A stretch of 64,000 nt of DNA from an uncultured Saccharicrinis sp. (GTDB lineage Bacteria > Bacteroidota > Bacteroidia > Bacteroidales > Marinilabiliaceae): positions 28,490 through 92,489 of the forward strand of contig CAXXQP010000001.1 in NCBI GenBank assembly GCA_963663905.2, read 5' to 3'. The position numbers and the translations under genes were made by a program. The notes beneath the pieces were generated by a model that saw only the letters and a list, made by a program, of their open reading frames with translations, did no database searches and was not told the DNA's origin. Below are positions 1 to 23,966 of the stretch, in pieces (positions within the stretch are counted from its first letter, which is position 1; each line of letters opens with the position of its first letter).

Positions 1-2330
1 GCAGGGAAAAAGATAAATAGTTTATAAATAACTAATATACAAGCAATATCGATAATTTAAAAATAGATAGTACTGAGAGGAATTTATACTAATTTATCAA
101 AACTAATTATGCTATATATTAAGTATTTTATTAAGTAATAGAAAGTACCCAAATTACAAACTAACCTTAATCTAAGTAACTATACACGGTCATCTCTATA
201 TAAACCTATAATTTAATGAGCTAGTAAATTACTTAGAACTGTTTATTGAAGATATTGCAGTGTTTCCTGAAGGCTAAATTTTTCTATTTTAATCTACAAG
301 CATATTAATAAATATAATGGAAACAATAATGACATGAAAGTTGTATTGAGACATCATAATTGTATATGTCATGAATAAAGTATTATCTTGAATAACACTA
401 GGACTACAGAAATACAGACATGCTTTAAGGTAAGTATCTATACACATTATTTGTATCTATTAAATATGAAGTAATAGGGTAGTAAGACCAGAACTATAAG
501 TAATCTTTCTTGTTGTTAAAATTGAAATCAGAAAAGTCGAATGTGTATAAATAACTATAAAACAACCAATATCAATAATCATCCTGCAAACAGTAGTATG
601 TGGAAATATGTATTGAAGCATAGTAATTCTTTATGTCATGAATAGAGTATTTTTTTAAGTAACATTAGGACTACAGTATAACAGACAGGCCTTAATGTAA
701 GTAACCATACACATTCATTTGTATCTATTATATTAGAATAATAGGGTAGCAAGAGCAAAAATATTTTTAATTATTCTTATTGTTAAGTTAGTAATCAGCA
801 AAGTTGAATGTGTATAAATGACTATAAAACAACCAATATCAATAATCATTCTGCAAACAGTAGTAACTGGAAATATGTATTGAAGCATAGTAATTCTTTA
901 TGTCATGAATAGAGTATTTTTTAAGTAACATTAGGACTACAGTATAACAGACAGGCCTTAATGTAAGTAACCATACACATTCATTTGTATCTATTATATT
1001 AGAATAATAGGGTAGCAAGAGCAAAAATATTTTTAATTATTCTTATTGTTAAGTTAGTAATCAGCAAAGTTGAATGTGTATAAATGACTATAAAACAACC
1101 AATATCAATAATCATCCTGCAAACAGTAGTAACTGGAAATATGTATTGAAGCATAGTAATTCTTTATGTCATGAATAGTGTATTTTTTTGAGTAACATTA
1201 GGACTACAGTATAACAGACAGGCCTTAATGTAAGTAACCATACACATTCATTTGTATCTATTATATTAGAATAATAGGGTAGCAAGAGCAAAAATATTTT
1301 TAATTATTCTTATTGTTAAGTTAGTAATCAGCAAAGTTGAATGTGTATAAATGACTATAAAACAACCAATATCAATAATCATCCTGCAAACAGTAGTAAC
1401 TGGAAATATGTATTGAAGCATAGTAATTCTTTATGTCATGAATAGTGTATTTTTTTGAGTAACATTAGGATTACAGCATTACAAACATACCTTAATGTAA
1501 GTAACTGTACACATTCATTTGTATCTATTAGATTAGAATTAATAGTGTAGTAAGACCAGAACTATAAGTAATCTTTCTTGTTGTTAAAATTGAAATCAGC
1601 AAAATCGAATGAGTATAAATAACTATAACACAACCAATATCAATAATCATCCTGCAAACAGTAGTAACTGGAAATGTGTATTGACATATACTAATTGTTT
1701 ATGTCATGAATAGTGTATTGTATTGAATAACATAAGGACCACAGCATTACAGACATGGTTTAATGTAAGTAACTGTACACATTTAATTGTATCTATTAGA
1801 TTATAATAATAGAATAGTTAGATGAAAAATATTTGTTACCTTTCTAGTATTAATATAGCTGCCAAGAAAGATAAATATTTATAAATAACTAATATACAAT
1901 CAATATCGATAGATTAAAAATAGATAGTACTGAGAGGAAGTTAAATTAATTTATCAAAACTAATTATGTTATATATAGAGTATTCTATTGAGTAATATTA
2001 AGTACCAAAATTACAAACTAACCTTAATCTAAGTAACTATACGCATTCATTTCATTCTATTAAATAATAATAATAAGGTAGCAAGAGCAAAAATATGTGT
2101 TACCTTTCTTGTTGTTAAGTTAGCAATCAGCAAAGTTGAATGTGTATAAATAACTAATATACAGTTAATATCGATAATTATACTGAAAAAAAGTAATGAG
2201 AAAATAATTGTATTAACATAGCAAAAATAATTATTCCAAGCTTAGCAATTGATCGTAGTAAGAATAATTCATTTATATTATTTAAATGTAATACCATAAG
2301 TAACGATACACATTGTAAATAAAATAGAAG
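1..2330. repeat. Non-coding tandem array of ~267-bp units (about 9 units, open at the left window edge), each carrying an iteron-like 15-mer
   Basis: ATGTCATGAATA recurs at 366, 633, 900, 1166, 1433 and 1701. TAAGTAnnnnTACAC recurs at 173, 431, 698, 964, 1231, 1498, 1766, 2030 and 2297. The central units are near-identical and the outer units diverged. No ORF longer than 61 aa. Confidence 0.95.
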
Positions 2331-2335
2331 TTAAG

Positions 2336-2360
2336 CAAAACGGCAAAATTTGCCGTTTTG
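2336..2360. promoter_or_regulatory. Perfect 12+1+12 palindrome CAAAACGGCAAA-A-TTTGCCGTTTTG; candidate parS or operator
   Basis: Seen directly. Shares the 19-bp core AACGGCAAAWTTTGCCGTT with 8760-8782. Function is inferred. Confidence 0.5.
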
Positions 2361-3552
2361 GATTTAATCATTTATATCTCAAATAGAATTTTATAATATT
2401 CATAACTTATAGCAAGATTTAATGCATAAAACTCACAAATAAAAATTACTTATACTTTTATATATTTAAGTAAAATTCTTTGCTAAAAAATGTGATACAA
2501 TTTTATTGTGTAAAAGGAATCCAAGTATAAGACGAATACAAAATTATAAGTTACTTAATCCTGGCATTGAAAACAAAATTAATAGAACTTATCTCTCAAG
2601 ACATTTTTAAGAAAGTAATATGAGTAATGCTGTTTATCTTTGTGATATATCTGGTGGAAAAAATACGAAGTAATATCAAATATATACAATTGATTAAATG
2701 ATACTTACAAAATTAAATAGCTATAATAAAAAACTTCATTATCAATAAGCTGCTTAATCGATTTCTACCTCTAAACAAACAATTTGCATCTTATCATAAA
2801 TCAACACTGATTTATGATTGTTCTTGGTATAGATAAATTATAACAAAAGAAATTTATAAATGAATGAAAAATGTCAGAGAAAGTAAAGTTCATTACTCTG
2901 ATTGCGAGAAACTAAAATTGATTTTATTTTCGAAGGATTAACAACAGCCAAACATAAATCTAAAGCCAACTATTCTGATATCAAAAATCTTAAATAAGCA
3001 GATAAAAAAAAGATATGGAAAGATATAGTTCTATATAATATATACAAAACTGCTACTAGTAATATATTCTAAAAAGTTTACATACACAATGTGAAATAAA
3101 GAGAAAATTTTAGAAATGGACAAATTCACTAGAGAAAATTGCTAAAATTTTTGAACATAAAAAATTCAATCTCCAACATATAATAAAGGAGTTTTTTAAT
3201 ATCTGTTACTACTACTGAATTCCAACATTTTTATAAAAATTAATTCTTCTCAAACTAAATTAGTTGTAACTTTTACTTACTTTGATATAAAGTAAGTAAC
3301 CATACACATTAATAGATGCTTCAATAATAAAACTAAATCCTATATGCTTGATTATATGTTCTTTATATCCATATAAAAATTGTGATTTTAAAAATACTTG
3401 TGTCAAATATAAATCTCTACACGTTAAATTTGAAATTTCCAAAAGTACTATTGTAATGCAAATATCAGAACAAGATGAAAAAAGCAATGCTCATATTTAA
3501 TTATTTAACAATTAATTTCAATAATCATAATTCTAAAAATAAGTACTAATAA

Positions 3553-4442
3553 TTAATGTCAATCAAGAGTTGAAATTAAAGTAAAAATGTGAAGTAAGAG
3601 TCTGTGACTATTTTTATGAATTAGAATATTACTTTGAACTTTTTAGTAATAACAACAAACCAGAATTTATCGAACAGGAAATAATGATAATATACCTATT
3701 CGGGATCCATTATCAAAGTTACACAAAAACAAAGCACATTCACAAATTTGCTATGGATTACCTATTGGATTGGTTTCCTAAACTTGGTTCCTATCAGGCA
3801 GTCAATAATAATAGCTTAAACAATTTGGATGGAGCGTATAATAGGATATTAGAGTTATTTGTTAGAGATTTAAACCAACCGATTGTATTATCGATCAGAA
3901 CTTACTTGATTCCATGCTTATTATTACATATTCGGGTAAGCAAAGGTAAAGTAGCCAGGGAAATAATCGACTAGGGCAGATACTATTATGGTATGAAGTT
4001 GCACATGTTAGGGTTCAGAGGGTCTAGGAACTTTACCGTTCCCAGACCAAATACACTATATGACAGCATCTGTAAACGATATTAATGTTTATAAAGAAGC
4101 TTGATCTGAAATATACGAACGGACTTTCTTTGGTGATAAAATTTATATGAATCAAGAATTTAACGAACAAATAAAAGCAAGTTTAAATTCTGACCCCCGT
4201 AAAGGCCGTAAAAGGTATGCCCGATATTATCAAACAAAGGTTTAAAGCAGCAGAAGATTTGTATTCCACTGCTGTTTCCTGAATCAGGCAACCTATCGAG
4301 GCAATATTCTCGTGGATTATTGAGAAAACAGATATTCAGCGGGCTAGTAAAGTTAGGTCAACCCAAGGCTTGATTTTACATGCCTTGGGCAAACTATTGG
4401 CTGCTTTTTTAAATTATGCTTTTTAACCCTTGATTCGAATAA
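3553..4442 (+). mobile_element. Degenerate IS982-family insertion sequence (transposase pseudogene)
   Basis: Fragments in shifting frames read LLDWFPKLGSYQA, KGKVAREI, GDKIY, RQPIEAIFSW and RASKVRSTQGL, typical of Bacteroidota IS982 transposases, with internal stops. Imperfect terminal repeats AATCAAGAGTTGAAA / TTTTAACCCTTGATT. Confidence 0.8.
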
Positions 4443-4519
4443 TTAACTAATTGCTACAAAAAAATTATGTATTTCAAATAAAACTAATTATAGGGTAAGG
4501 AGGATAAAAGTATTAAACC

Positions 4520-4939
4520 CTATTTCCTAAAATTAAATAGTTTTTCAAGATTATTTGTTTGCATGCTATGTTTACTATTCAAAAAATTTGAAATTTGTAC
4601 AGCATGTATATTTGTTCCTTCGGCTATATCAATTTGCTTTAATTCATGTCGTTTTATAAATTCTTCTAATAATTCTATAAAATTTACTTCTCCTTGCAAA
4701 TTAACATATTGTAAAACAAATCGAGTTATTGCGGAACAAGTGCAAGTATTATTATCCTCAAAAACAGTAATAAATATTTCTCTAAAAAGTTTTAATATAT
4801 TCATTAAATCTAATATTCGATTGTTATCTGTATTATTATTAGACAACTCAGATTTAAGATAAAATATTTGCTTATCAATAATATCAATCATAATATTTGA
4901 ATTTTCATCCCCATATAATTCGTATTTACATTTAACCAC
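4520..4939 (-). CDS. Hypothetical protein with C-terminal XRE/Cro-type helix-turn-helix
   Basis: C-terminus LKQIDIAEGTNIHAVQISNFLN resembles an XRE HTH. The GTG start overlaps the parB stop by 8 nt. Confidence 0.7.
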   Translation of the reverse strand: MVKCKYELYGDENSNIMIDIIDKQIFYLKSELSNNNTDNNRILDLMNILKLFREIFITVFEDNNTCTCSAITRFVLQYVNLQGEVNFIELLEEFIKRHELKQIDIAEGTNIHAVQISNFLNSKHSMQTNNLEKLFNFRK

Positions 4940-5957
4940 GAATTATATTATTGTCTTGTAATAATTTCATAAATCGTTTATCTCGTTCTTCTATAGAGGT
5001 AAACTTTTCATCTATTTGAGTCCATGTTTTATTATCCCTATCTAGAAAAAGTATAGAAGCATCTTCATTATTATCCTTTCTAATAATTTTAAAACCGGAT
5101 TCAATTAATTTACTATAATCGGATTTACTATATTTTGTACTTAAATAATCAGATAATACTGAAAATGCAATCGTTTTATTAACTTTTGACAATCGTTTTT
5201 TTATATCTTTTAAAATATCCTCATATTCATCATGATAATCGGCACCATCATTTACTCCGACTAATTCCTCATTAGATTTTGATTTCTTTTTTCTATAATG
5301 AGAAGTTACTTCGATTAAATCATCCTCATTTTCTATTAATTTATCAATCTCTTTTTTTGATAAATCTTGAATATCTCCTTTAGATACCTTTGCTTTTCCT
5401 CCTAAAATATGCCCCTTAAATTCATCAGAAAGTTTTTCAATTCCACTAGCAAAATGACCAGCATTTCTAATACTTCTTTCAGACATACCAGTACTTGCAG
5501 CTATATCTTTGGCGACATTAACTACATTTTCATCATTGGATCGATCATATTTTCCTTGTCCAGTTTTACGATTATTATAAAGTAGACCAACTAGGTAGGT
5601 TCTATTTGCATCAGACAAATTCCTTCTACCTAATTGCTTTTTCAACATCCAATCCTTTACTTCATCAATATTGGTAAAAGAATGTTCTGTTGTAGCAAAT
5701 GATATATTTAATTCGGTAGCAATTCTATAACGGTTATGACCATCAATAATAATATTCTGACCAAAATCATTATTAACCCAAACATCAATAGGTTCTTTAA
5801 TACCTTCAACTTTTATTGATTCATATAAAAGAGTTTCTTCATCTTCATTTAATGGTGGGATAAAAGATTTAAGTTCAGGTAAAACAGAGATTTCTAAATT
5901 ACCTGAGTTATTACCTAATAATTGATCAAAACCACCAACAAATTTCTTTTTTGCCAT
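4932..5957 (-). CDS. parB: ParB-like partition protein (ParB/Srx N-domain plus HTH)
   Basis: IIDGHNRYRI arginine patch, QLGRRNL motif, HTH GMSERSIRNA and N-terminal AKKKFVGGFDQLL peptide; lies directly downstream of parA. Confidence 0.85.
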   Translation of the reverse strand: MAKKKFVGGFDQLLGNNSGNLEISVLPELKSFIPPLNEDEETLLYESIKVEGIKEPIDVWVNNDFGQNIIIDGHNRYRIATELNISFATTEHSFTNIDEVKDWMLKKQLGRRNLSDANRTYLVGLLYNNRKTGQGKYDRSNDENVVNVAKDIAASTGMSERSIRNAGHFASGIEKLSDEFKGHILGGKAKVSKGDIQDLSKKEIDKLIENEDDLIEVTSHYRKKKSKSNEELVGVNDGADYHDEYEDILKDIKKRLSKVNKTIAFSVLSDYLSTKYSKSDYSKLIESGFKIIRKDNNEDASILFLDRDNKTWTQIDEKFTSIEERDKRFMKLLQDNNIIRG

Positions 5958-5965
5958 TTAAAAAA

Positions 5966-6703
5966 CTAATTAAGTAATTGAATAATTTCATTTGTTAATG
6001 ACTCATAATCGACAGCTCCATTACAATTTGGTTCATAACTAAATATATCAAGACCTGAAGTAGGAGCTTCAGCAAGTGAAATATTATCACGGATTAAGGT
6101 ATTAAAGACTTTATTTCCAAGACTATTTTTAATACTTTCAAGTACATCTCTATTTAAAACCTTTCTTGAATCGTATTTTGTAATAAAAACTTTATCGATT
6201 TCTAAACCTATTTTTGATATCGCTTCACTTAGAATTGAATACCCTTTTAATGATAAATATTCAGCTTCTACTGGAATAATAATATATTCTGATGCAACAA
6301 AACTATTAATTGTTAACACTCCTAATGCAGGAGGACAATCAATAATAATGAAATCATATTTGTCCTTGACTTCTTCTAGTAAGGTAGATAAAACAAATTC
6401 TCTTTTAAATACACTTGCCATTTCAAACTCAGCCTTACTTAATTCAAGACTAGATGGAACTAGATCTAAATTATCCTTTATTGAAAGAATAGGGAGGTTA
6501 CTTTTACCCAATAAAGCATCATAGACACTTTCTTGAGGATCATTAATTCCAAGAGATTGTGTTAAATTATATTGAGGATCTAAATCAATTAATAAAGTTT
6601 TTTTTCCTTTTATAGCAAGACAAGCTCCAACATTTATTGATGATGTTGTTTTTCCAACACCTCCTTTAAAATTTGCAATCGATATTGTAATAGTAGAATT
6701 CAT
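5966..6703 (-). CDS. parA: ParA/Soj-family partition ATPase
   Basis: Deviant Walker A KGGVGKTT, IDLDPQ and IIIDCPP motifs. Confidence 0.97.
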   Translation of the reverse strand: MNSTITISIANFKGGVGKTTSSINVGACLAIKGKKTLLIDLDPQYNLTQSLGINDPQESVYDALLGKSNLPILSIKDNLDLVPSSLELSKAEFEMASVFKREFVLSTLLEEVKDKYDFIIIDCPPALGVLTINSFVASEYIIIPVEAEYLSLKGYSILSEAISKIGLEIDKVFITKYDSRKVLNRDVLESIKNSLGNKVFNTLIRDNISLAEAPTSGLDIFSYEPNCNGAVDYESLTNEIIQLLN

Positions 6704-6993
6704 AGTTATAAAATTATCAGTACGAAATTAATATATTTAATTATTTTGCCATGATAATTATCAAATATTTTTTTAACATTAATAAATTATAGACAGGCCA
6801 AATCAATGGAAAACAGCCTAATGCTCTTCTGACTATTTTTTATCACATTTTCTGTATTAAATAAAAAATTTGAAATTTATAAAAATTAAGTAGTTTGAAT
6901 TATATTGAACAACTATATTATTGAATTTTAATTATTTATAAGTTAACTCCTGATGGATATAGTATCGATATTTATTTGGCATAAAGAAAAATT

Positions 6994-8507
6994 GTAACTA
7001 TTCAGTCAAATTTTAAAAACATAAATTTTTCTGGAGAATGTTGATAAGTATTACTGAAATAAAGAAAATTGTGAATAAAGAATATGAGATATAGTTTCAG
7101 TAAAGAGTAGGTATGTCGACCTTTACATCTGCATGGGAAAGAAGAAAAGTATAGAAAAAAAATTAGATGCCTTATTTGTTAGAGTTGATAAACTCGAAAC
7201 AGAGAACAAGGAACTTCGCGAGGAAAATGCCACCCTCAAAGAACGTCTTTCTCATTATGAAACACCAAAGAACAGTAGAAATAGCAGCAAGCCACCTTCA
7301 TCTGATTTCCCCAAATTACCTAGAACACAATCGTTACGAAAAAAATCAGGCAAAAAACCAGGAGGGCAATCAGGACATAAAGGCAATACACTAAAAATGG
7401 TCGAAGAACCAACTGTTATACAAGAACACTATTCAAATTATTGTAAGTGTTGTGGCAATAATCTTTCAGATATAGCAGGCACATTTGCAGGAAGACGTCA
7501 GGTAATTGACATACCACCTATTAAACCAGTGGTTACCGAACACCGTATTTACCATAAACAATGCAGTTGTGGAATGGTAAACAAGGGATGCTATCCTAAT
7601 CAAGTAAATACACCTGTTAGTTATGGTACAAACACTCAGGCCTTAGCTGCTTACATGCATACTCGCCAATATATGCCTTATGACCGCTTGCGTGAATTCT
7701 TTAATACCATATTAGGGTTAAAAATTAGTACCGGAGGTTTAAACTATCTGATTGGTAAGTTCACTAAAAAAGCAACTCCTTTCTACGAGCAAATACGTAA
7801 CAATGTACTTTCTCATTGTACTGTTGGAGCTGATGAAACAGGAACTAATATTAATGGAAAACTTGATTGGGCATGGGTCTTTCAAAATGCACAATCTACC
7901 TTTTTATCTGTTCATCAGAAACGAGGTTATGATGCTATTGAGGAAATTATGCCGGAAGGTTTTAAAAACAATACTTTGGTAACAGATTGTTGGAAACCTT
8001 ATTTTAAAACACAAGCAGGGAATCACCAATTGTGTACTGCCCACCTTTTAAGAGAGCTTGAATTCTTTATCCAGAAATATCCCAAAAGCAACTGGGCATC
8101 GAAAATGAAAACGCTTATTATTAAAGCCCTAAAAATCTACAACAATAATTGGGATGATAAGGCAACTAAAGCACAAATATTTAAAGCATTTGTGAAACTC
8201 CAAAATAAGCAGATTAGCGAAACATTAAAAGAAGTGGTTGTCTTTAAAAACAGATTAGTAAAATACGCTGATTATGTATTCACATTCCTAAATCAACCTG
8301 ATGTTCCTCCTGATAATAATGCTTCGGAACGGGCTGTGAGAAATTTTAAAGTAAAACAAAAAGTCAGTGGTTTCTTCAAATCATTTGAAGGTGCAAATCA
8401 TTATGCAATACAAAGATCTATTATAGATACAGCTATCAAGAGTTCTCAAAATCCCTTTGATACGCTTCGTGCTATAGCTATAGTTTAAGGCATGACTGAA
8501 TAGTTAC
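6994..8507 (+). mobile_element. Intact single-ORF IS66-family element (ISBst12-like)
   Basis: Perfect 15-bp terminal inverted repeats GTAACTATTCAGTCA / TGACTGAATAGTTAC. 8-bp target duplication GAAAAATT at 6986-6993 and 8508-8515. Confidence 0.95.
7133..8488 (+). CDS. IS66-family transposase (TnpC-like)
   Basis: Coiled-coil N-terminus, NSSKPPSSD, GGQSGHKG, zinc finger, ADETG, HQLCTAHLLREL and PDNNASERAVR. Confidence 0.95.
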   Translation: MGKKKSIEKKLDALFVRVDKLETENKELREENATLKERLSHYETPKNSRNSSKPPSSDFPKLPRTQSLRKKSGKKPGGQSGHKGNTLKMVEEPTVIQEHYSNYCKCCGNNLSDIAGTFAGRRQVIDIPPIKPVVTEHRIYHKQCSCGMVNKGCYPNQVNTPVSYGTNTQALAAYMHTRQYMPYDRLREFFNTILGLKISTGGLNYLIGKFTKKATPFYEQIRNNVLSHCTVGADETGTNINGKLDWAWVFQNAQSTFLSVHQKRGYDAIEEIMPEGFKNNTLVTDCWKPYFKTQAGNHQLCTAHLLRELEFFIQKYPKSNWASKMKTLIIKALKIYNNNWDDKATKAQIFKAFVKLQNKQISETLKEVVVFKNRLVKYADYVFTFLNQPDVPPDNNASERAVRNFKVKQKVSGFFKSFEGANHYAIQRSIIDTAIKSSQNPFDTLRAIAIV

Positions 8508-8759
8508 GAAAAATTTTTATCTATTAAATATGTTAATCTAATTCATTTTTGATTGTATTCTCAGTAATATATAGCAAATAATATATCTTATTAATAGTTA
8601 ATTTGAAATTTGATTTTCTACAATATAAATTGATCATAAAAATCTGTTTTAGGTTTACTAACAAAAAGTTTGAGTTTTACGATTATTTTAATAATTAACT
8701 TTTGAACAACAAATTCTTTATCTGGAAACAAGTTTTAAAAAATACATTAAGAAAAAATG

Positions 8760-8782
8760 ATAACGGCAAATTTTGCCGTTAT
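8760..8782. promoter_or_regulatory. Perfect 11+1+11 palindrome ATAACGGCAAA-T-TTTGCCGTTAT; candidate parS or operator
   Basis: Seen directly. Same core as 2336-2360. Lies between parA and the iteron cluster. Confidence 0.5.
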
Positions 8783-9057
8783 GCTAATACTAATCATACT
8801 ATAAAAAAATATAATACTCTTTGCCAAACTTGGAGATAGTAAAATTAGATCTTAATATACATTTTGTTAAATCCCTTTCCCCCCTTAATAAAACTATTGC
8901 GTAAGCAATTTAATTTTTAGTGATTTATAATTTTTATTACAGACTGTTTTGGTACAAATAAAGATCAGTTAAGTGATATTAGTATAGATTTAGTAAAATC
9001 ACGCCTTATTGTAATTTCTTTATAGTATTTAATATACTAGTATTATATATAATAGAG

Positions 9058-9407
9058 GTGTAGAGATAATTAGGTTATAAAGTATTATCTCATTGATATT
9101 AAATATTTTAAGCATACTGAATACGTGTAGACTTACTTACGATAATAAATAGAAAATTATATTTGAGGACTAATTTGTGTAGACTTACTTACTATATAAT
9201 GATATATTGTGTAGAGATGCTTCCTAAAAAAGGTGTAACTGTGTATGTTTAGTTACATTAAAACGGTTTAATGTGTATAATTACTTATGTTTTAAACTAT
9301 TAGTGTGTAACCTTACTTATATTAAAAGTATAGTTTTGTGTATAATTACTTACGTTAAACTATGGTTTTGAAATATATAAATGTAGTATCGTGTATACTT
9401 TCTTACG
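9058..9407 (+). promoter_or_regulatory. Iteron cluster (putative replication origin), consensus GTGTAnnnTTACTTA
   Basis: Copies start at 9125, 9177, 9209, 9241, 9273, 9305, 9338 and 9391 (spacings 52, 32, 32, 32, 32, 33, 53), with a weaker copy at 9058. AT-rich flanks; immediately upstream of the rep-like gene. Confidence 0.85.
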
Positions 9408-9587
9408 TTTTAAGATGATAGAAAGATTTATTGATGATTACTCTACAAATCATTAAAATTACATAATAAAACTAGAACAAAGTATTTTAAGTGAAATTTA
9501 TTACGTATATTTTCAAAAAAAGTCGTATTTATAACTGAATTCTTTCTTATTTTTAGTTATGTTTGTTACTACAAACACAGTTCATAA

Positions 9588-10817
9588 ATGAAGCAGCCCT
9601 CAAGCATAGGAATAGCACCAAATTTAGTACGAGTAGATAAGAATGTTGCTTATAATATTACAGATTTTTCATTAATTAATGATGAATCTGGTCTTATAAA
9701 ATCACTTATTTATTACTTTTGTCACTCTTATCAAAATAATTTTTTTGGATATGGAGTACTAGACCCTATGCATTTTGCAAAAACATTTAATTACACTACC
9801 AATTATCTTCAAGCAACTGTTAAAAAACCTGCTCAGTTTAAAGGAAAATCGGAAAAAGAAATAAGTTTCCTGATACAAGCAGAAAAAGAAGATCCTTCTC
9901 AACGAGTATTTGATAGTAGATTAGAAAATGCTTTGTATATTTTGTCAACACAACCTGTAAGTTTTTCTAACGAGGGTCAAATTAGAGATTTTAATGAAGA
10001 TATAGGATATTTTTACAGAAAGATTTCTTCAATGTTGTTCATTGAACAATTAGAAGTTCGATTTACTAGACCAAAATCGGGGAGAGGGAAGGAAAAAATA
10101 TTATACAACTATCAGTTGAATAAGGAATTTGTAAAAAACTTGTCTACATTTTATTTAAAAGCGAATACGAATTCATTTATTAAACTGCGTAAAGCGAATT
10201 TTGATGACTTATACATTCATTTAGTTACAGCAAGAACAAATTTGTCTGTTAAAAATGAACACATCTACAGGCCTAAATTTGATCACCTTTGGTCTGTTTT
10301 AGGTAAGCATAGGGAAGAAAAAAGAGAACAAAAACGAGAGCTAAAAAAAGCATTAGAAAAGATACAAAAAGAAACGGAGTTAAATTTTGAATTAACTTGG
10401 GAAAAAAGTCCAAACTCAAGATTTGCTTATCAACCAGTAATAAATTTTGAGAAGATTTTCTCAACACCTAAAGAAAGAGAAGATGCTATAAAGAATGAAC
10501 GCAGACAAGTTTTTGATCAAAACTTAATTCATGAAATGCTTGAAGTTTTAAAAAGTGTCAAGCCTAGTAAATATTACTCTGAAAATAGAGAAAATAATTT
10601 TCTTAATTGGATGAGAGATAATAAAATTGATATACGTGAAAAATCAGCTGCGTATGAACAAGCTCAACTAAAGACCTACTTAAAAATACCAAAACACATT
10701 GACGCTTATAAACGTTCTTTTTTTAATAACATAAAACCAACATCTACTTTAAAAGAAATATTTACAGATGTAGAAATAAATCATAATGCTCCAAAACAAG
10801 AATATATTATAGATTAA
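9588..10817 (+). CDS. Putative replication initiator, divergent Rep_3/RepB-like winged-helix protein
   Basis: Segments DDLYIHL and HLWSVLG...KRELKKALEKIQKETELNFELTWEK...VINF follow the Rep_3 WH2 pattern. Context: preceded by iterons, divergent from parAB. TATGTTTG -7 box at 9558. Confidence 0.65.
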   Translation: MKQPSSIGIAPNLVRVDKNVAYNITDFSLINDESGLIKSLIYYFCHSYQNNFFGYGVLDPMHFAKTFNYTTNYLQATVKKPAQFKGKSEKEISFLIQAEKEDPSQRVFDSRLENALYILSTQPVSFSNEGQIRDFNEDIGYFYRKISSMLFIEQLEVRFTRPKSGRGKEKILYNYQLNKEFVKNLSTFYLKANTNSFIKLRKANFDDLYIHLVTARTNLSVKNEHIYRPKFDHLWSVLGKHREEKREQKRELKKALEKIQKETELNFELTWEKSPNSRFAYQPVINFEKIFSTPKEREDAIKNERRQVFDQNLIHEMLEVLKSVKPSKYYSENRENNFLNWMRDNKIDIREKSAAYEQAQLKTYLKIPKHIDAYKRSFFNNIKPTSTLKEIFTDVEINHNAPKQEYIID

Positions 10818-10847
10818 AACTATCTAAAATGTTGAAATCTCAGAAAT

Positions 10848-11915
10848 CTATAAATTCAATAACTCATCATTCCAATCTTTGGAATTGCATTTGATTAGCT
10901 TTATATCATATTTAATATCGTTTGAATTAACTAATTTATTAAGGAACCATTTGAAAGAATCTTTATCTTTTATAAGATATTCTTCATTATCTATAATTAA
11001 TTCAACAAGATTAGTATCTATTTTTAGAATTTTTAGAGACTTATTAGTAGCAAACTTCGTAATAATTTTCAAATCATTTTTTAATCCCCCAAAATCATTA
11101 TCATTAATTAAAATGATACTCTTATATATTCCTTGATCAACTAGATTAAAGAGTTTTTGACACTGTTTATCACTAATAGTCCCAAAAGAGGCAACATGTG
11201 TACTAGTAAAATCTCTATTAATTTGACAATAAGAAAGATTATCAATAGGATTTTCAGAAATAACCAAAGTCTTGTGTGTTTTGGAATAATTTGAAACCCA
11301 AAAAGAATCAACTACTTCACTGCCCAAAGCCATTTTCTTTTCGTTTGAATCTCTTATTTCTAAGCCTACGACTGTTTTATCCTTAATTGAGGGGAATCCA
11401 GTCATAACGGGTCCATAATTACTTTTGGTCTTAAAACCATATTTGTAACAGTTTACTATAGTCCCTTTAAATAATGGATGATTAATTGTTTCCTTATTCA
11501 AACCCCGACTCAATAAAAAATCATAATTGATTAATTCATGTGGAGCATAGAGTTCATATTCAAATTTTACTTTCTCTTGAAAAGTTTTAATTTCCTGGGT
11601 AAGTTCTTTTCCTCCGGAATCTTCATCCAACTTGGCAAAGGCTTTAGCATAATCTTGTTTGGACTTACTATCTGTACTCAGATAACCATTGATCCTATTG
11701 ACTACAAAATTGATAATATTACCTTTATCCCTGGTATCGTTAAGATTCTGATAAATATACTTTCCTGTTTTTTGATGCCTCAGTACTAAAAGCTTCTCCC
11801 CATCTTTCTCAAATACCTTTTGCCTGGCAGTAGATTTATGTATATCTATCACATATCCTGAACTTAAAAGATACTTGGTCAGATCAATTTTTTCTATGTA
11901 ATGAAAAGCATCCAT
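10848..11915 (-). CDS. Toprim-domain (primase-like, DUF3991-type) protein
   Basis: DKGNIINFV, ISENPIDNLSY, NDNDFGG and terminal KDWNDEL motifs. Confidence 0.8.
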   Translation of the reverse strand: MDAFHYIEKIDLTKYLLSSGYVIDIHKSTARQKVFEKDGEKLLVLRHQKTGKYIYQNLNDTRDKGNIINFVVNRINGYLSTDSKSKQDYAKAFAKLDEDSGGKELTQEIKTFQEKVKFEYELYAPHELINYDFLLSRGLNKETINHPLFKGTIVNCYKYGFKTKSNYGPVMTGFPSIKDKTVVGLEIRDSNEKKMALGSEVVDSFWVSNYSKTHKTLVISENPIDNLSYCQINRDFTSTHVASFGTISDKQCQKLFNLVDQGIYKSIILINDNDFGGLKNDLKIITKFATNKSLKILKIDTNLVELIIDNEEYLIKDKDSFKWFLNKLVNSNDIKYDIKLIKCNSKDWNDELLNL

Positions 11916-11983
11916 AGGATCATTAATTCATATTCCAAATTTGAATAACAATAATCAAAAATTATATAACCTGAAAATTACTA

Positions 11984-12262
11984 TTATTCTATCAGTTTCA
12001 ATAAAAGATTTTTAATTTCTTCAGTTTTATCTTTTTTAACGACAGGTTGTACATGAAGACAAAGTGATTCAATAGCTATTTCTTTGTGACTTAAAACCAT
12101 TTCCTTGGTATAGCCGCAGTATAAATCCAGATAATCTTTGATAACCACTTTAGGGAAGGGACTATTCTCTTCCAAGGCATACTCAATCAGGTGTTTCACT
12201 GCTATTTTTTCACTTTTAGATAATTCGCTCATTAGAAAATTCATAAATAATACTCGGGGCAA
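11984..12262 (-). CDS. Small hypothetical protein
   Basis: 92-aa ORF co-oriented with the toprim gene; TATTTTTG -7-like box upstream on the minus strand. Confidence 0.55.
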   Translation of the reverse strand: MPRVLFMNFLMSELSKSEKIAVKHLIEYALEENSPFPKVVIKDYLDLYCGYTKEMVLSHKEIAIESLCLHVQPVVKKDKTEEIKNLLLKLIE

Positions 12263-12956
12263 AAATAGTAAATTTTGCGAGTAATTCTTTTAAGGGGGAG
12301 GAGATTAAAAAAAGAGTCTATTGAACATATATAGCTATAGGACACTAATTTTAATTTATCGTCATAAATTAAAATTTAGGCAGGAGTGATTGCGCCGTGG
12401 GGTTAATTAACATAGTGCCGCTATAGGACTGCCGGAGGTATTCTGTTTACACCGTTGAAGATAGGCAAGTTTTATAGCGAGGCATTATGTTATTATTAGC
12501 TTTGGGGTGCTGTTTTTGGCGTTGCTTTTGCCGGAGTCAGCTTTTATGGCTTTGGAGTAAATATGTTGAAGTAAGGTACGAGCGGAAACAATTTGCGAGA
12601 AAGTTATAAATGCTATGGGATTGTGCCAGGTTTCCTGGTGCTCGGTTTTTAAGGCATTTTTAGTAGTGAGGTACGAACTGTGAAATGACTTAAATACCGA
12701 GTGTGGGTTTGGGCAAAAGGTATGACAAAAACAGCAACAGAAGAGTAGGGAAGTTGCAAACATAGATTGCATGGATTTTTTGAATAAGAAATAATGTGTG
12801 GGTAAAAACAGCTGTTGCCATTGATTAAGCGTGCTGTAAATATGAAATGGCAATTGCTGTTGGGAAAAAGGAGGTTTTTAAATGGAGCGAAGAGGAGTGA
12901 AAATACCGGGATGTGTGAAGGTTTTGATTACAAATCAAGCGCCAACTAAGAAGTGG

Positions 12957-13176
12957 TTTGCAACTTTTGAGGCGTTGGGAGTGAATGGCCATCACCTGAA
13001 CGAATACACCCTATATACAGAAGCGTGGGAATAGGGGTATTTAGGGTGAATGAGTGATGGCGTTATTTGATATTTTGTGAAATTAAAATTATATTCGTGT
13101 ATAACTCATAGTTTAGGGTTAGGTTTGGTTAAAGATTAAAAGCCACTATCAGAACGTTTGATAGTGGCTTTTTTAT
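12957..13176 (+). ncRNA. Candidate sRNA unit, copy 1: conserved upstream segment, TTTG-N20-TATATTCG promoter, ~70-nt transcript, intrinsic terminator
   Basis: Homologous to 52470-52672. Terminator AAAAGCCACTATCA-gaacgtt-TGATAGTGGCTTTT. The RNA assignment is inferred. Confidence 0.45.
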
Positions 13177-21225: not shown

Positions 21226-21593
21226 GTCTTTATCCTTCGCTGAGCTGAGGGATATAGTTTAGTCTTTAATAGTTAAAAAAATAAAAATATTCTCATTGTG
21301 TATTTCCTGTAATTTACATTTGTTATATCTTTTTTCTTCAGCATTAAAACGTTTTTTTATTTCTCAATATTTATTCATTGGGTATTGTATGTATCATATA
21401 AACAGGAGGATAGGAAATCAGGACTATAGTTCGTATATTAAAAGGAAGTCTATCTAATACATAATTAACGAGCAGAAAGCTTTTTAAATTGGGCAAATGT
21501 AAGTTTGTGATAATAATTTAAAAAGTGTAAAAGAAACTAAATGAAAACAATTGATTTTTCCACTTTGGAAAATTTGATTTTAAAAGAGTAAGT

Positions 21594-23966
21594 ATGAAAA
21601 AAAATCTAATTATTGTATTGGGTATTGTGTTTGCAACACTGATATCTGTGCCTTCATTCGGTCAGGAGGAGAATGATACCATTAAAGTAAAGAAGCTTTC
21701 GTCTAAAGAAGAAGGCAATCGGAATGTTATGTTGAATGCTGAAAGTAATACCGGCCCGAGGGAAGTTAATATAGGTTTACCTTATAGGGGTGATATTGTT
21801 ATTTTGGAAAATGATGTACCTGTGGTGGCTTATTTTTGGCCTACAATTCCAACTTATGCTTGGCGTATGAGTAATAGTTTTGGAGCAATGGGCTTGCTTT
21901 CCTTCTCTGAGGGTGCACTTACCTGGGGTAAGGTTGGTTATGCAGTGAAGTCTGAAGATAGGGGTGCTTCCAGGAAGTTTCGTGGATATGCTTCTGTATT
22001 TACAGACAATTTTGGATCATCAAAATTTGATGTGACTTTAACTGGTCCGCTTAATAAAAAAGGTTGGGGCTATATGTTAAATGCATACCAACACAACAAC
22101 AAAACCAATGGAACTAATTACCAGTTTACATCATGGGGATCAAAAACTTCGCAGCTTAAAGCAATGATTGAAAAAAAATACTCCAAAGGTTCGGTGCGCT
22201 TGATGTATAAGATGGTAGATTCAAAAAGCGTTTTTAATAACAACGCTCCATTGATGTATTTAGGTGATGGGGAAACAGAAGCCCTTGATAATTTCGATCC
22301 GGGAACAGATTCGTATATAGTGGGAAGCGGGATAGTACCTTATACAGATCCTCGCACTGGTGAAGTCGGATATGCAGATTTAGGAAGTGATAAGTTCAGG
22401 CATTCTGAATCACACAATTTATATTTGTCGGGAAACCATAAGTTCAAAAATGGAATGAAGTTAACCTATAGTACAATGTTCCAAAAAATGAATACTCCTA
22501 TTGGACTTACTTTTCCAATCAGTGCAAATATATATAATAAACAATCAATCTTAGGTCAAACTACCACTGCCTATTATTTAGGTTCGAACAGAGAGTATGA
22601 GGGAGAGTATGCTCAGTTGGTTACAAATCAGCTTATTCCTCAAAGTGATATTACAACCTGGATGACCAGGGCTGAGTTAACAAAGAAAGCGAATGGTCAT
22701 GCTTTGCGCCTGGGACTTACAAACCAATACAATAAAAGAGAATACGAATCTTTAGGAGGACTTTATGTTATATCTGTTGAACCAAATCCGAGTGTACTTT
22801 ATGTTCAGGGAAGTTATTATGGCTATCCGTTTGATCTTACCAGTTCAGAAAACGGTCTGCTGGCAGGTGCAGGAGGTTATGGTGGCCTGACTGATGATTC
22901 GTTTAATAAGACTGCGTTATATGTTTCCGACGATTTCAGCCCGGCACCGTGGTTGGATTTAGGTTTAGGCGGACGTATCGAAAGATTGAGTAAAAAGGAC
23001 AGGCATTATACTGCAGTTTCAGGAAATGAAGTAGTTACTGCAGGTGGATATGTGGATGGTGAATTGAATGACTGGAATTATGTGGGTCTTGGAAACGCTG
23101 TTGTTAAATTGACAAAAAATTTCGGATTGTTAGGTAGTTTTACTTATAACTCCTGGATGGACACTTACTGGGATTATGCATATAAAGACGAGAATAATGT
23201 ACCCGTGGCAGCACCTGGCGAACCTTATCCCAGAACAACCGAGTCAAAGTCATACAGACAAGATGTTATTTACTATGATGGTGGTATTTTCCTGAATTTG
23301 GGTGAAAAGTTGAACATTGTTTCAAAGCTTACACATATCGAGAAAAACGGTATTTACGACTCAGGTTCGCTGATTACATACAAAAAGGATCCAACACAAA
23401 AACAAGATGTGGGACCTTTATTCTATGGTCTGTCTACTACCGGATGGTCAACAGATATTGTTTCCAGCCCATTTAAGAATTTTAATCTACATTTTCTCTT
23501 GACGCTTCAAAGTCCGGAATATAAAGATTATGCATTTACAACACGTTTTTCTGATCCTACCACAGGAGAAGAAGATGTGGAAAGCTACGATTACAACGGT
23601 AAGATTTATCCAGGATTATCTAAAGTATTGATGGAAATTGATCCAAGCTATTCTTTTATGAAAAGAAAAATGAGAGCATGGTTTAGCTTACGCTACTTCG
23701 GTAAGCAGTATGGAAATCGCACCAACGCATTTGAATACAATGGTTGGTGGGAAAACTTTGGTGGATTGGATTATACAATGAGCCGCAATGTTGCAATAAA
23801 ACTACAGGTTGTGAATTTCTTGAATCAAAGAGGGATAAAAGGAGAAGTTCAGGGGGCAGCACAAACTACCAAGGAAGAAGTTGCACAGAACTATGTTGGA
23901 CATCCGATTGTGGCCAGTGCTTTGCGTCCAAGAACGTTTGAGTTGACAGTTAATTTTAAATTTTAG
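21594..23966 (+). CDS. TonB-dependent receptor-like outer-membrane beta-barrel (non-SusC type, short N-terminus)
   Basis: Signal peptide, NRNVMLNA...PREVNIGLP N-terminus, amphipathic strands and C-terminal RTFELTVNFKF. Confidence 0.8.
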   Translation: MKKNLIIVLGIVFATLISVPSFGQEENDTIKVKKLSSKEEGNRNVMLNAESNTGPREVNIGLPYRGDIVILENDVPVVAYFWPTIPTYAWRMSNSFGAMGLLSFSEGALTWGKVGYAVKSEDRGASRKFRGYASVFTDNFGSSKFDVTLTGPLNKKGWGYMLNAYQHNNKTNGTNYQFTSWGSKTSQLKAMIEKKYSKGSVRLMYKMVDSKSVFNNNAPLMYLGDGETEALDNFDPGTDSYIVGSGIVPYTDPRTGEVGYADLGSDKFRHSESHNLYLSGNHKFKNGMKLTYSTMFQKMNTPIGLTFPISANIYNKQSILGQTTTAYYLGSNREYEGEYAQLVTNQLIPQSDITTWMTRAELTKKANGHALRLGLTNQYNKREYESLGGLYVISVEPNPSVLYVQGSYYGYPFDLTSSENGLLAGAGGYGGLTDDSFNKTALYVSDDFSPAPWLDLGLGGRIERLSKKDRHYTAVSGNEVVTAGGYVDGELNDWNYVGLGNAVVKLTKNFGLLGSFTYNSWMDTYWDYAYKDENNVPVAAPGEPYPRTTESKSYRQDVIYYDGGIFLNLGEKLNIVSKLTHIEKNGIYDSGSLITYKKDPTQKQDVGPLFYGLSTTGWSTDIVSSPFKNFNLHFLLTLQSPEYKDYAFTTRFSDPTTGEEDVESYDYNGKIYPGLSKVLMEIDPSYSFMKRKMRAWFSLRYFGKQYGNRTNAFEYNGWWENFGGLDYTMSRNVAIKLQVVNFLNQRGIKGEVQGAAQTTKEEVAQNYVGHPIVASALRPRTFELTVNFKF

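What the first reader, a model, noticed from the sequence alone, without database searches (positions are those of the whole stretch)
9058..9587. Symmetric, helically phased iteron cluster
Seen: eight direct repeats GTGTAnnnTTACTTA spaced 52, 32, 32, 32, 32, 33 and 53 bp, i.e. about 5, 3, 3, 3, 3, 3 and 5 helical turns, so all sit on one DNA face in a mirror-symmetric layout. The two conserved halves (GTGTA, TTACTTA) are separated by a variable triplet, as expected for a two-winged-helix initiator. Known: Rep_3 iterons are typically phased at about 2 turns (F, pPS10, R6K). Inference: this is the origin, with unusual 3-turn spacing, and it probably also autoregulates rep.
Basis: partly seen in the sequence, partly recalled or inferred. 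Interest (0 to 1): 0.65.

Follow-up and report, generated by a model that had tools for sequence, protein, structure and literature searches.

The report
Three-turn iteron origin, Bacteroidota plasmid
The repeat cluster is very probably the replication origin of a plasmid-like replicon of a marine Bacteroidota bacterium, served by an unannotated relative of the classical plasmid initiators whose binding sites sit three DNA turns apart instead of the usual two.

Summary
The repeats are real. Nine direct copies of tGTGTA-nnn-TTACTTA lie at 9058-9405, spaced 67, 52, 32, 32, 32, 32, 33 and 53 bp. All 17 matches with at most one mismatch in the 64 kb fall in this cluster or in a distal 267-bp array.

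The 409-aa ORF downstream has no Pfam, NCBIfam or PHROG match. Its high-confidence model (pLDDT 93.6) matches only RepE-type tandem winged-helix initiators.

About 225 protein clusters form this unannotated Bacteroidota family. Arrays of 30-33 bp period sit beside the gene in 17 of 30 loci, each lineage with its own repeat sequence. Two Cytophagales plasmids have 21-bp arrays. In 13 of 14 loci the least stable DNA lies at the end of the array away from rep (here 9015-9054).

In a relative whose rep synonymous sites are saturated, the motif and the 66-52-32-32-32-32-33 layout are unchanged.

So this is an iteron origin, and the three-turn period marks most of the family. The mirror symmetry looks incidental. 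Autoregulation through the iterons is unsupported, because the conserved promoter lies about 150 bp downstream. No DnaA boxes were found. Nothing has been tested experimentally.

The parts
9058..9405 (+). Core iteron array. Nine direct copies start at 9058, 9125, 9177, 9209, 9241, 9273, 9305, 9338 and 9391 (15-bp motif GTGTAnnnTTACTTA; conserved core about 20 bp). Spacing is 67, 52, 32, 32, 32, 32, 33 and 53 bp.
   Evidence: The same spacing pattern is present in L005 and L006. L005 has one extra perfect 32-bp unit.
9013..9057 (.). Candidate DNA-unwinding element: a pure A/T-rich tract that abuts the first iteron, on the side away from rep.
   Evidence: The least stable 40-mer of the first 13 kb is 9015-9054 (dG -35.2 against a mean of -42.9). 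It is conserved in L005 and L006. The same position at the end of the array away from rep holds in 13 of 14 family loci.
9588..10817 (+). rep: a 409-aa initiator of an unannotated Bacteroidota family. The predicted fold is tandem winged-helix (about residues 13-290) plus a C-terminal helical extension (about 294-391).
   Evidence: No Pfam, NCBIfam or PHROG match. AF2 pLDDT 93.6. All of the top 45 Foldseek matches are RepE54 or Rep-DNA complexes; 43 have probability 0.99-1.00 and TM about 0.5-0.6 on the target, and the two chains of the dimeric RepE entry 2z9o score lower. 225 clusters at 50% identity. pN 0.067 against pS 0.76 versus L006.
9558..9577 (+). Candidate rep promoter -7 box TATGTTTG (9558-9565), overlapped by the inverted repeat TGTTTGT-N4-ACAAACA (9560-9577). 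This is a candidate operator.
   Evidence: Conserved in L005, L006 and L003. The Bacteroidota -7 consensus TAnnTTTG is from general knowledge. No binding data exist.
8862..8912 (.). Conserved non-coding block left of the DUE: GTTAAAyCCCTTTCCCCCTTAATAAAA followed by ATTGCGTAAGCAAT. Role unknown.
   Evidence: Conserved between the window, L005 and L006 although rep synonymous sites are saturated.
173..3307 (-). Distal iterons. Ten near-consensus copies lie in the opposite orientation at 173, 431, 698, 964, 1231, 1498, 1766, 2030, 2297 and 3293. Nine sit one per unit of a 267-bp tandem repeat and are not helically phased. Candidate copy-control (titration or handcuffing) sites.
   Evidence: A similar array is present in L005. 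L006 instead has a 169-bp tandem array with three iterons per unit, spaced 35, 45 and 89 bp.
4520..6703 (-). Partition operon divergent from rep: parA (5966-6703), a parB-like gene (4932-5957) and an HTH gene (4520-4939).
   Evidence: Pfam AAA_31/CbiA for ParA. Weak ParB matches in NCBIfam and PHROGs. Conserved in L005 and L006.
8760..8782 (.). Palindrome ATAACGGCAAATTTTGCCGTTAT, with a second copy at 2336-2360. Candidate parS, an alternative ParB site distinct from the iterons.
Evidence: Two copies each in the window, L005 and L006, with the core sequence AACGGCAAAwTTTGCCGTT conserved.
7003..8509 (+). IS66-family insertion (transposase ORF 7133-8488) between parA and the origin. It is not part of the origin.
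   Evidence: Pfam DDE_Tnp_IS66. The stretch is absent from L005 and L006, whose flanks align on both sides.
10848..11915 (-). Toprim_2-domain protein convergent with rep. Possibly a primase-like accessory replication protein.
   Evidence: Pfam Toprim_2, E 2.7e-7. Homologues lie next to rep in L005, L006 and L004. A toprim gene is present on the Alistipes plasmid.

Best explanation
Region 9013-9405 is the vegetative replication origin (oriV) of a plasmid-type replicon of a Marinilabiliaceae bacterium. The closest sequenced relative is Plebeiibacterium sediminum.

Proposed mechanism:
- Monomers of the Rep encoded at 9588-10817 bind each roughly 20-bp iteron. Their two winged-helix domains would read the GTGTA and TTACTTA half-sites in adjacent major grooves (inferred from the predicted fold and from the RepE-iteron structure).
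- The 32-bp (three-turn) period, with outliers at 52-53 bp (five turns), puts the bound Reps on one face of the helix (shown by the spacing).
- This should allow cooperative assembly that opens the abutting A/T tract at 9015-9054 (inferred). Helicase loading would follow, with no recognisable DnaA box to recruit DnaA.
- The ten further iterons in the distal 267-bp repeats are not helically phased. They most likely titrate or handcuff Rep to limit initiation (inferred by analogy with P1 incA and F incC).
- Control of rep transcription more likely acts at the conserved inverted repeat over the -7 box than at the iterons.
For: - Motif clustering far above chance; layout read directly from the sequence.
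- Rep model pLDDT 93.6. All of the top 45 Foldseek matches are RepE54 or Rep-DNA complexes; 43 have probability 0.99-1.00 and TM about 0.5-0.6 on the target. Weak Rep3_N or Rep3_C matches in 3 of 80 family members.
- Family-wide co-occurrence. Arrays of 30-33 bp period and 3-9 copies lie within about 1 kb of the gene in 17 of 30 loci, upstream or downstream, each lineage with its own repeat sequence. Two Cytophagales plasmids have 21-bp arrays.
- Spacings cluster on multiples of about 10.6 bp: Rayleigh p about 1e-14 over all spacings, 4e-7 over distinct values per locus.
- The least stable 40-mer lies at the end of the array away from rep in 13 of 14 loci, often abutting it.
- Against L006, rep has pS 0.76 (saturated) and pN 0.067, yet the motif and the 66-52-32-32-32-32-33 layout are retained.
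- The complete 82.8-kb Alistipes plasmid lists no other initiator, and its iterons lie next to the homologue, 15 kb from parA.
- A marine-sediment metatranscriptome holds contigs that match rep over 492 nt with no difference and over 306 nt with one.
Against: - No experiment exists: no binding, replication or marker-frequency data.
Full-replicon GC skew and the presence of other origins are therefore unknown.
- No DnaA box is conserved near the arrays (4 hits against 5.5 expected). This departs from most classical iteron origins.
- The Pfam Rep_3 models do not match the protein.
- Some family loci (L004, L017, L021-L026) show no clear array in the sequence held.
- In the Chryseobacterium plasmid a short Rep_3-type gene lies about 0.7 kb from the array.
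Confidence: 0.85

Rival explanations
1. The module is a genuine iteron origin by descent, but it is not the origin that replicates this DNA. It would be a relic or secondary origin of a plasmid absorbed into a larger replicon that starts elsewhere.
For: - G+C steps from about 26% (1-12 kb) to about 36% beyond.
- An IS66 element has inserted next to the origin.
- The identical Rep is recorded on a 479-kb contig.
- The cargo is ordinary sugar-degradation and transport genes.
Against: - rep, parA and parB are intact and 95-99.8% identical to the copies on the P. sediminum scaffold.
- rep is under strong purifying selection.
- In run X6 the module and the cargo have the same contig depth, 25-27.
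- Genes from 19 to 64 kb almost all point away from the origin, with GC skew about +0.2.
- rep transcripts are seen.
Confidence: 0.08
2. The repeats are a partition centromere bound by the ParB-like or HTH protein of the neighbouring par operon. The layout would be like pB171 parC1-parAB-parC2, with one set upstream and one set downstream of the operon.
For: The two repeat sets flank the par operon. Many plasmid centromeres are arrays of direct repeats (general knowledge).
Against: - Across the family the arrays track the rep homologue, not par. No ParA lies within the flanks held in most loci, and in the Alistipes plasmid parA is 15 kb away.
- A separate conserved palindrome pair flanking the par genes is a better parS candidate.
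- An A/T-rich unwinding tract abuts the arrays.
Confidence: 0.04
3. The array is a Rep-binding control region only (incompatibility, titration or promoter control). Strand opening would occur elsewhere, for example in or near the distal 267-bp array.
For: Iteron clusters outside minimal origins exist in P1 and F (general knowledge). The distal copies are closer to consensus than the core copies.
Against: - Only the core array is helically phased, and only it abuts the least stable DNA of the region.
- The core layout is conserved in L006, whereas the auxiliary array differs there in unit length, position and orientation.
Confidence: 0.03

Closest known systems
F plasmid ori2 / RepE (also pPS10 RepA, R6K pi, RK2 TrfA): classical iteron theta origins with Rep_3-type tandem winged-helix initiators
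   Same: - Direct repeats next to rep, with an A/T-rich unwinding tract at one end of the array.
- Bipartite site read by two winged-helix domains: the predicted fold matches RepE54-iteron complexes.
- Helical phasing of the sites.
- Extra iterons outside the core.
   Different: - The period is 32 bp (3 turns) instead of about 22 bp (2 turns).
- The protein is about 150 residues longer, with a C-terminal helical domain.
- The protein is not detected by the Pfam Rep_3 models.
- There are no DnaA boxes.
- The promoter inverted repeat does not resemble a half-iteron.
P1 plasmid prophage oriR with incC (origin iterons) and incA (control iterons); F incB/incC
   Same: There are two sets of the same initiator site. 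One is phased at the origin. The other is auxiliary and plausibly limits copy number by titration or handcuffing.
   Different: Here the auxiliary sites lie about 6-9 kb away, in the opposite orientation, one per 267-bp tandem unit. In L006 they are three per 169-bp unit. Their function is untested.
Satellite phage P4 ori / crr
   Same: The initiator sites are split between an origin and a distant cis element made of long direct repeats that each carry several sites (recalled from general knowledge, not tested here).
   Different: The P4 initiator is a primase-helicase, not a winged-helix Rep. Whether the distal array here is required for replication or inhibits it is unknown.
Vibrio cholerae chromosome 2 RctB / ori2
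   Same: It is an enlarged initiator with a Rep_3-like winged-helix core plus extra domains. It serves a large secondary replicon, with additional regulatory sites away from the origin iterons.
   Different: RctB has four domains and uses methylated 11/12-mers plus 39-mers and crtS. No sequence or fold match to it was seen here.

Membership tests
Iteron-type theta origin (F ori2, pPS10, R6K gamma, RK2 oriV class) | Several direct repeats of an initiator site adjacent to the rep gene | tested here: met
   Nine copies at 9058-9405, ending 183 bp upstream of rep.
Iteron-type theta origin (F ori2, pPS10, R6K gamma, RK2 oriV class) | Iterons spaced by whole numbers of helical turns | tested here: met
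   Spacings of 32, 33, 52 and 53 bp here. Family spacings cluster on multiples of about 10.6 bp (Rayleigh p 4e-7 to 1e-14). The period is 3 turns, not the usual 2.
Iteron-type theta origin (F ori2, pPS10, R6K gamma, RK2 oriV class) | A/T-rich DNA-unwinding element next to the iterons | tested here: met
   The least stable 40-mer of 13 kb is at 9015-9054 and abuts the array. The position is the same in 13 of 14 family loci. This is computed stability only.
Iteron-type theta origin (F ori2, pPS10, R6K gamma, RK2 oriV class) | DnaA box(es) in the origin | tested here: not met
   There is no TTATCCACA. The only one-mismatch hits are two iteron variants. Family-wide there are 4 hits against 5.5 expected.
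Iteron-type theta origin (F ori2, pPS10, R6K gamma, RK2 oriV class) | Initiator with tandem winged-helix (WH1-WH2) fold | tested here: met
   AF2 model pLDDT 93.6. All of the top 45 Foldseek PDB matches are RepE54 or Rep complexes; 43 have probability 0.99-1.00 and TM about 0.5-0.6. This is a prediction, not a solved structure.
Iteron-type theta origin (F ori2, pPS10, R6K gamma, RK2 oriV class) | Inverted half-iteron operator over the rep promoter (autorepression by Rep dimers) | tested here: inconclusive
   A conserved inverted repeat TGTTTGT-N4-ACAAACA overlaps the -7 box. It shares at most GTGT with the iteron.
Iteron-type theta origin (F ori2, pPS10, R6K gamma, RK2 oriV class) | Rep binds the iterons and the fragment replicates autonomously | not testable with these tools
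   Needs EMSA or footprinting and a replication assay.
Pfam Rep_3 sequence family (PF01051 Rep3_N, PF21205 Rep3_C) | Match to the family HMM above the gathering score | tested here: not met
   No match for the window protein. Only 3 of 80 relatives give weak matches (E 0.0015-0.005). There is no sequence match to PDB.
Plasmid centromere made of direct repeats (parC/parS type) | Repeats co-occur with the par genes and co-vary with the centromere-binding protein | tested here: not met
   The arrays follow rep, not par. A separate conserved palindrome pair flanks the par genes.
Copy-control iteron cluster (P1 incA, F incC), for the distal array only | Additional initiator sites outside the core origin that lower copy number | tested here: inconclusive
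   Ten extra near-consensus sites are present and unphased. Their effect on copy number is not testable here.

The most novel reading that the evidence does not exclude
The Rep belongs to a Bacteroidota-wide initiator class that no database describes. Its members would assemble on a three-turn lattice, possibly bridged by the extra C-terminal helical domain, and would open the origin without DnaA boxes. The Cytophagales branch has a two-turn (21-bp) lattice, so the lattice would differ by exactly one helical turn between branches of the family; which state is ancestral is not known. In this genome the system would drive a chromid-sized (about 0.5 Mb) replicon whose copy number is set by satellite-borne iterons.
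Probability: 0.3. Interest if true: 0.65.

Novelty: new variant of a known kind. Interest (0 to 1): 0.5.

Why it matters
Plasmid biology in Bacteroidota lags far behind that of Proteobacteria and Firmicutes.

- Annotation: this family has about 225 clusters at 50% identity, every named member seen is "hypothetical protein", and MOB-suite gives no replicon type for the plasmids that carry it. The gene plus a 31-32-bp array plus an A/T tract gives a simple signature for finding origins and typing replicons in marine, soil and gut Bacteroidota.
- Tools: the module is a candidate minimal replicon for shuttle vectors in Marinilabiliales, Flavobacteriia and Bacteroidales.
- Mechanism: one protein family uses site periods of 21, 31-32, 52-53 and 63-67 bp. 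This is a natural experiment on how winged-helix initiators cooperate across helical turns.

It is not a new principle of replication.

Tried and rejected
Whole-replicon GC skew, a search for other origins and replicon size could not be checked.
- The look-up of encoding contigs found no record for the window's own Rep or Toprim protein.
- Pfam, NCBIfam and PHROGs gave nothing for Rep. A profile search of PDB sequences gave nothing.
- An alignment of 80 sequences was too divergent for the search for related loci. A 17-sequence alignment worked.
- DnaA boxes: none conserved. Two iterons happen to read TTATACACA on the other strand. This is not kept in L006, so it is treated as chance.
- Centromere reading: rejected.
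- Mirror symmetry as a design feature: rejected.
- Autoregulation by iteron-promoter overlap: not supported. A degenerate iteron-like site at 9535-9549 is kept in L005 but not in L006.
- A protein feature that separates 21-bp from 32-bp lineages: the alignment shows only small indels and nothing decisive.
- Read and contig data: the runs are kept as assembled contigs, so no coverage gradient or transcription start site could be read.
- Literature: no paper in the held library mentions 31-33-bp iterons or iterons at three helical turns. The pMMCAT plasmid paper does not treat replication.

Full report
**The observation**

The sequence shows the repeats as described. GTGTAnnnTTACTTA starts on the + strand at 9125, 9177, 9209, 9241, 9273, 9305, 9338 and 9391, spaced 52, 32, 32, 32, 32, 33 and 53 bp.
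- The 9209 copy is degenerate in its second half.
- A ninth degenerate copy lies at 9058, 67 bp to the left. Both degenerate variants recur in relatives.
- With at most 2 mismatches the window holds 25 matches against 10.3 expected (0 of 100 shuffles reach 25).
- All 17 matches with at most 1 mismatch lie either in this cluster or in a second set on the minus strand at 173-3307.
- Information content over all 19 copies defines a core of about 20 bp: tGTGTA-nnn-TTACTTA-y-n-TTA.

**Surroundings**

- Downstream lies a 409-aa ORF (9588-10817).
- Upstream and divergent lie parA (5966-6703), a parB-like gene (4932-5957) and an HTH gene.
- An IS66-family element (about 7003-8509) sits between parA and the repeats. 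It is absent from two relatives whose flanks align on both sides.
- A Toprim_2 protein gene converges on rep.
- The first 12 kb have about 26% G+C against about 36% beyond.
- From 19 kb to 64 kb nearly all genes are on the + strand and GC skew is about +0.2. This fits replication moving rightward from an origin near 9 kb.

**The protein**

- Pfam, NCBIfam and PHROGs give no match. A profile of 80 relatives finds nothing in PDB sequences.
- An exhaustive search finds 225 clusters at 50% identity. Every named member seen is "hypothetical protein".
- The AlphaFold model built on 80 sequences is confident (mean pLDDT 93.6, pTM 0.91).
- All of its top 45 Foldseek matches in PDB are RepE54 of mini-F or Rep-DNA complexes. 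Forty-three have probability 0.99-1.00 and TM about 0.5-0.6 on the target; the two chains of the dimeric RepE entry 2z9o score lower. About 300 columns align.
- Three of 80 relatives give weak Pfam matches to Rep3_N or Rep3_C.
- The protein is therefore a remote, enlarged relative of the tandem winged-helix initiators, with an extra C-terminal helical region (about residues 294-391).
- The centres of the two half-sites are 9-10 bp apart. That is what two winged-helix domains in adjacent major grooves would read. This step is an inference from the RepE-iteron structure.

**Relatives of this locus**

- L005 is a 10-kb scaffold of Plebeiibacterium sediminum (Marinilabiliaceae). Its Rep is 99.8% identical. 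It has the same architecture without the IS, and exactly one extra perfect 32-bp unit.
- L006 is a 57-kb record of an uncultured Saccharicrinis. Its Rep is 90% identical. rep synonymous sites are saturated (pS 0.76) while pN is 0.067.
- Even so, L006 keeps the same motif and the spacing pattern 66-52-32-32-32-32-33. Which sequence variant sits at which position has shifted. Selection therefore appears to act on the motif and the lattice, not on the individual units.
- L006 lacks the right-hand 53-bp copy. Counting the 9058 copy, the window's own layout is not symmetric. I take the mirror symmetry to be incidental.

**The family**

I examined 30 loci: plasmid records, metagenome contigs and genomes.
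- TRF and motif scans find arrays of 30-33 bp period and 3-9 copies within about 1 kb of the rep homologue in 17 loci. These include plasmids of Chryseobacterium, Alistipes and Tenacibaculum. The arrays lie upstream in some loci and downstream in others.
- Each lineage has its own repeat sequence. Where units have diverged, a core of about 20 bp is kept and about 11 bp of spacer is free.
- Two Cytophagales plasmids (Dyadobacter, Pontibacter; about 21-25% identity) have 21-bp arrays of the classical two-turn kind.
- Outlier spacings are 42-44, 52-53 and 63-67 bp. Overall the spacings cluster on multiples of about 10.6 bp: Rayleigh p about 1e-14 over all spacings, and 4e-7 when each distinct value is counted once per locus.
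- In 13 of 14 non-redundant loci the least stable 40-mer within 400 bp lies at the end of the array away from rep, often abutting it.
- In the window that 40-mer is 9015-9054. It is also the least stable 40-mer of the first 13 kb.
- The complete 82.8-kb Alistipes plasmid lists no other initiator gene. Its iterons lie next to the homologue and 15 kb from parA.

**Rival readings**

- Centromere. The two repeat sets do flank the par operon. Against this, across the family the arrays follow rep and not par. In addition, a separate palindrome, AACGGCAAAwTTTGCCGTT, occurs twice beside the par genes in the window (2336-2360, 8760-8782), in L005 and in L006. That palindrome is a better parS candidate.
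- Relic or secondary origin. This cannot be excluded without the whole replicon. Against it, the genes are intact and under purifying selection. The module and the cargo have equal contig depth in one run (25-27). A marine-sediment metatranscriptome holds contigs that match rep (492 nt with no difference, 306 nt with one) and parB.

**Differences from classical iteron origins**

- No DnaA box is present or enriched: 4 one-mismatch hits against 5.5 expected across 14 loci.
- The conserved Bacteroidota-type -7 box (TATGTTTG, 9558-9565) lies 153 bp after the last iteron. The iterons therefore cannot occlude the promoter.
- A conserved inverted repeat, TGTTTGT-N4-ACAAACA (9560-9577), overlaps the -7 box in all four close relatives. 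It does not resemble the iteron. Autoregulation is possible, but nothing shows that it runs through these iterons.
- The ten distal iterons are nearer to consensus than the core copies. Nine of them sit one per 267-bp unit. L006 instead has three per 169-bp unit, at 35, 45 and 89 bp. Neither arrangement is helically phased. This fits titration or handcuffing rather than origin opening.

**Literature**

In the held library no paper mentions 31-33-bp iterons or iterons at three helical turns. A review records that Rep cooperativity is lost when two iterons are moved apart by half a helical turn (PMC4980987). The paper on the gut plasmid pMMCAT does not treat replication.

**Verdict**

This is a genuine, probably active iteron origin of a known general kind. 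It is served by an unannotated winged-helix initiator family of Bacteroidota. A three-turn site period marks most of that family, there are no DnaA boxes, and auxiliary iterons are carried on long tandem repeats. Nothing has been tested at the bench.

Noticed in passing
window 1-2330 and 3293-3307; L006 8660-9725: Long-period tandem repeats carry extra iterons. In the window they are 267-bp units with one iteron each, on the minus strand. In L006 they are 169-bp units with three iterons each, on the plus strand, lying between the core array and rep. Unit length, position and orientation differ between relatives whose Rep is 90% identical.
   Followed up: partly
window 2336-2360 and 8760-8782; L005 1917-1969, 7525-7551; L006 4584-4610, 6015-6041: A conserved palindrome with core AACGGCAAAwTTTGCCGTT occurs twice beside the par genes in all three replicons. 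It is a candidate parS, though a terminator role is not excluded.
   Followed up: partly
window 7003-8509: A single-ORF IS66-family element is inserted between parA and the origin. It is absent from L005 and L006. It is present in the contigs of run X3 (record 17, 3990-12433) and run X6 (record 25, 6718-9225).
   Followed up: partly
window 10848-11915 (-); L004 8453-9664; Alistipes plasmid 21432-22568: A Toprim_2-domain protein of about 355-400 aa recurs next to or on the same element as this Rep family. It may be a primase-like partner. The only PDB sequence hint is T7 primase, at a non-significant E of 0.47.
   Followed up: partly
window 8862-8912: A C-rich block followed by ATTGCGTAAGCAAT lies about 100 bp left of the A/T tract. 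It is conserved in L005 and L006 although neutral sites are saturated. Its role is unknown.
   Followed up: no
window 12394-13000: Contig depth is two to ten times higher here and many variants occur in all runs laid. This indicates a repeated element at the boundary between the low-G+C module and the cargo.
   Followed up: no
L005 8105-8168 versus window 9338-9369: There is a copy-number polymorphism of exactly one perfect 32-bp iteron unit between two replicons whose Rep is 99.8% identical.
   Followed up: yes
L027 2406-2506 (Dyadobacter plasmid), L028 4605-4906 (Pontibacter plasmid): Distant family members in Cytophagales have 21-bp (two-turn) iteron arrays. The family therefore spans both two-turn and three-turn lattices.
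   Followed up: partly
L003 and L004: Family members with 37-70% identical Rep lie beside Bacteroidota-type conjugation genes (TraG, TraM, DUF4138) and are preceded by a small HTH gene. L004 shows no clear iteron array.
   Followed up: no
window 19000-64000: Nearly all genes are on the + strand and GC skew is about +0.2. The cargo includes an AcrB-type efflux operon and sugar-degradation genes. The identical Rep is recorded on a 479-kb contig, which hints at a chromid or megaplasmid.
   Followed up: no
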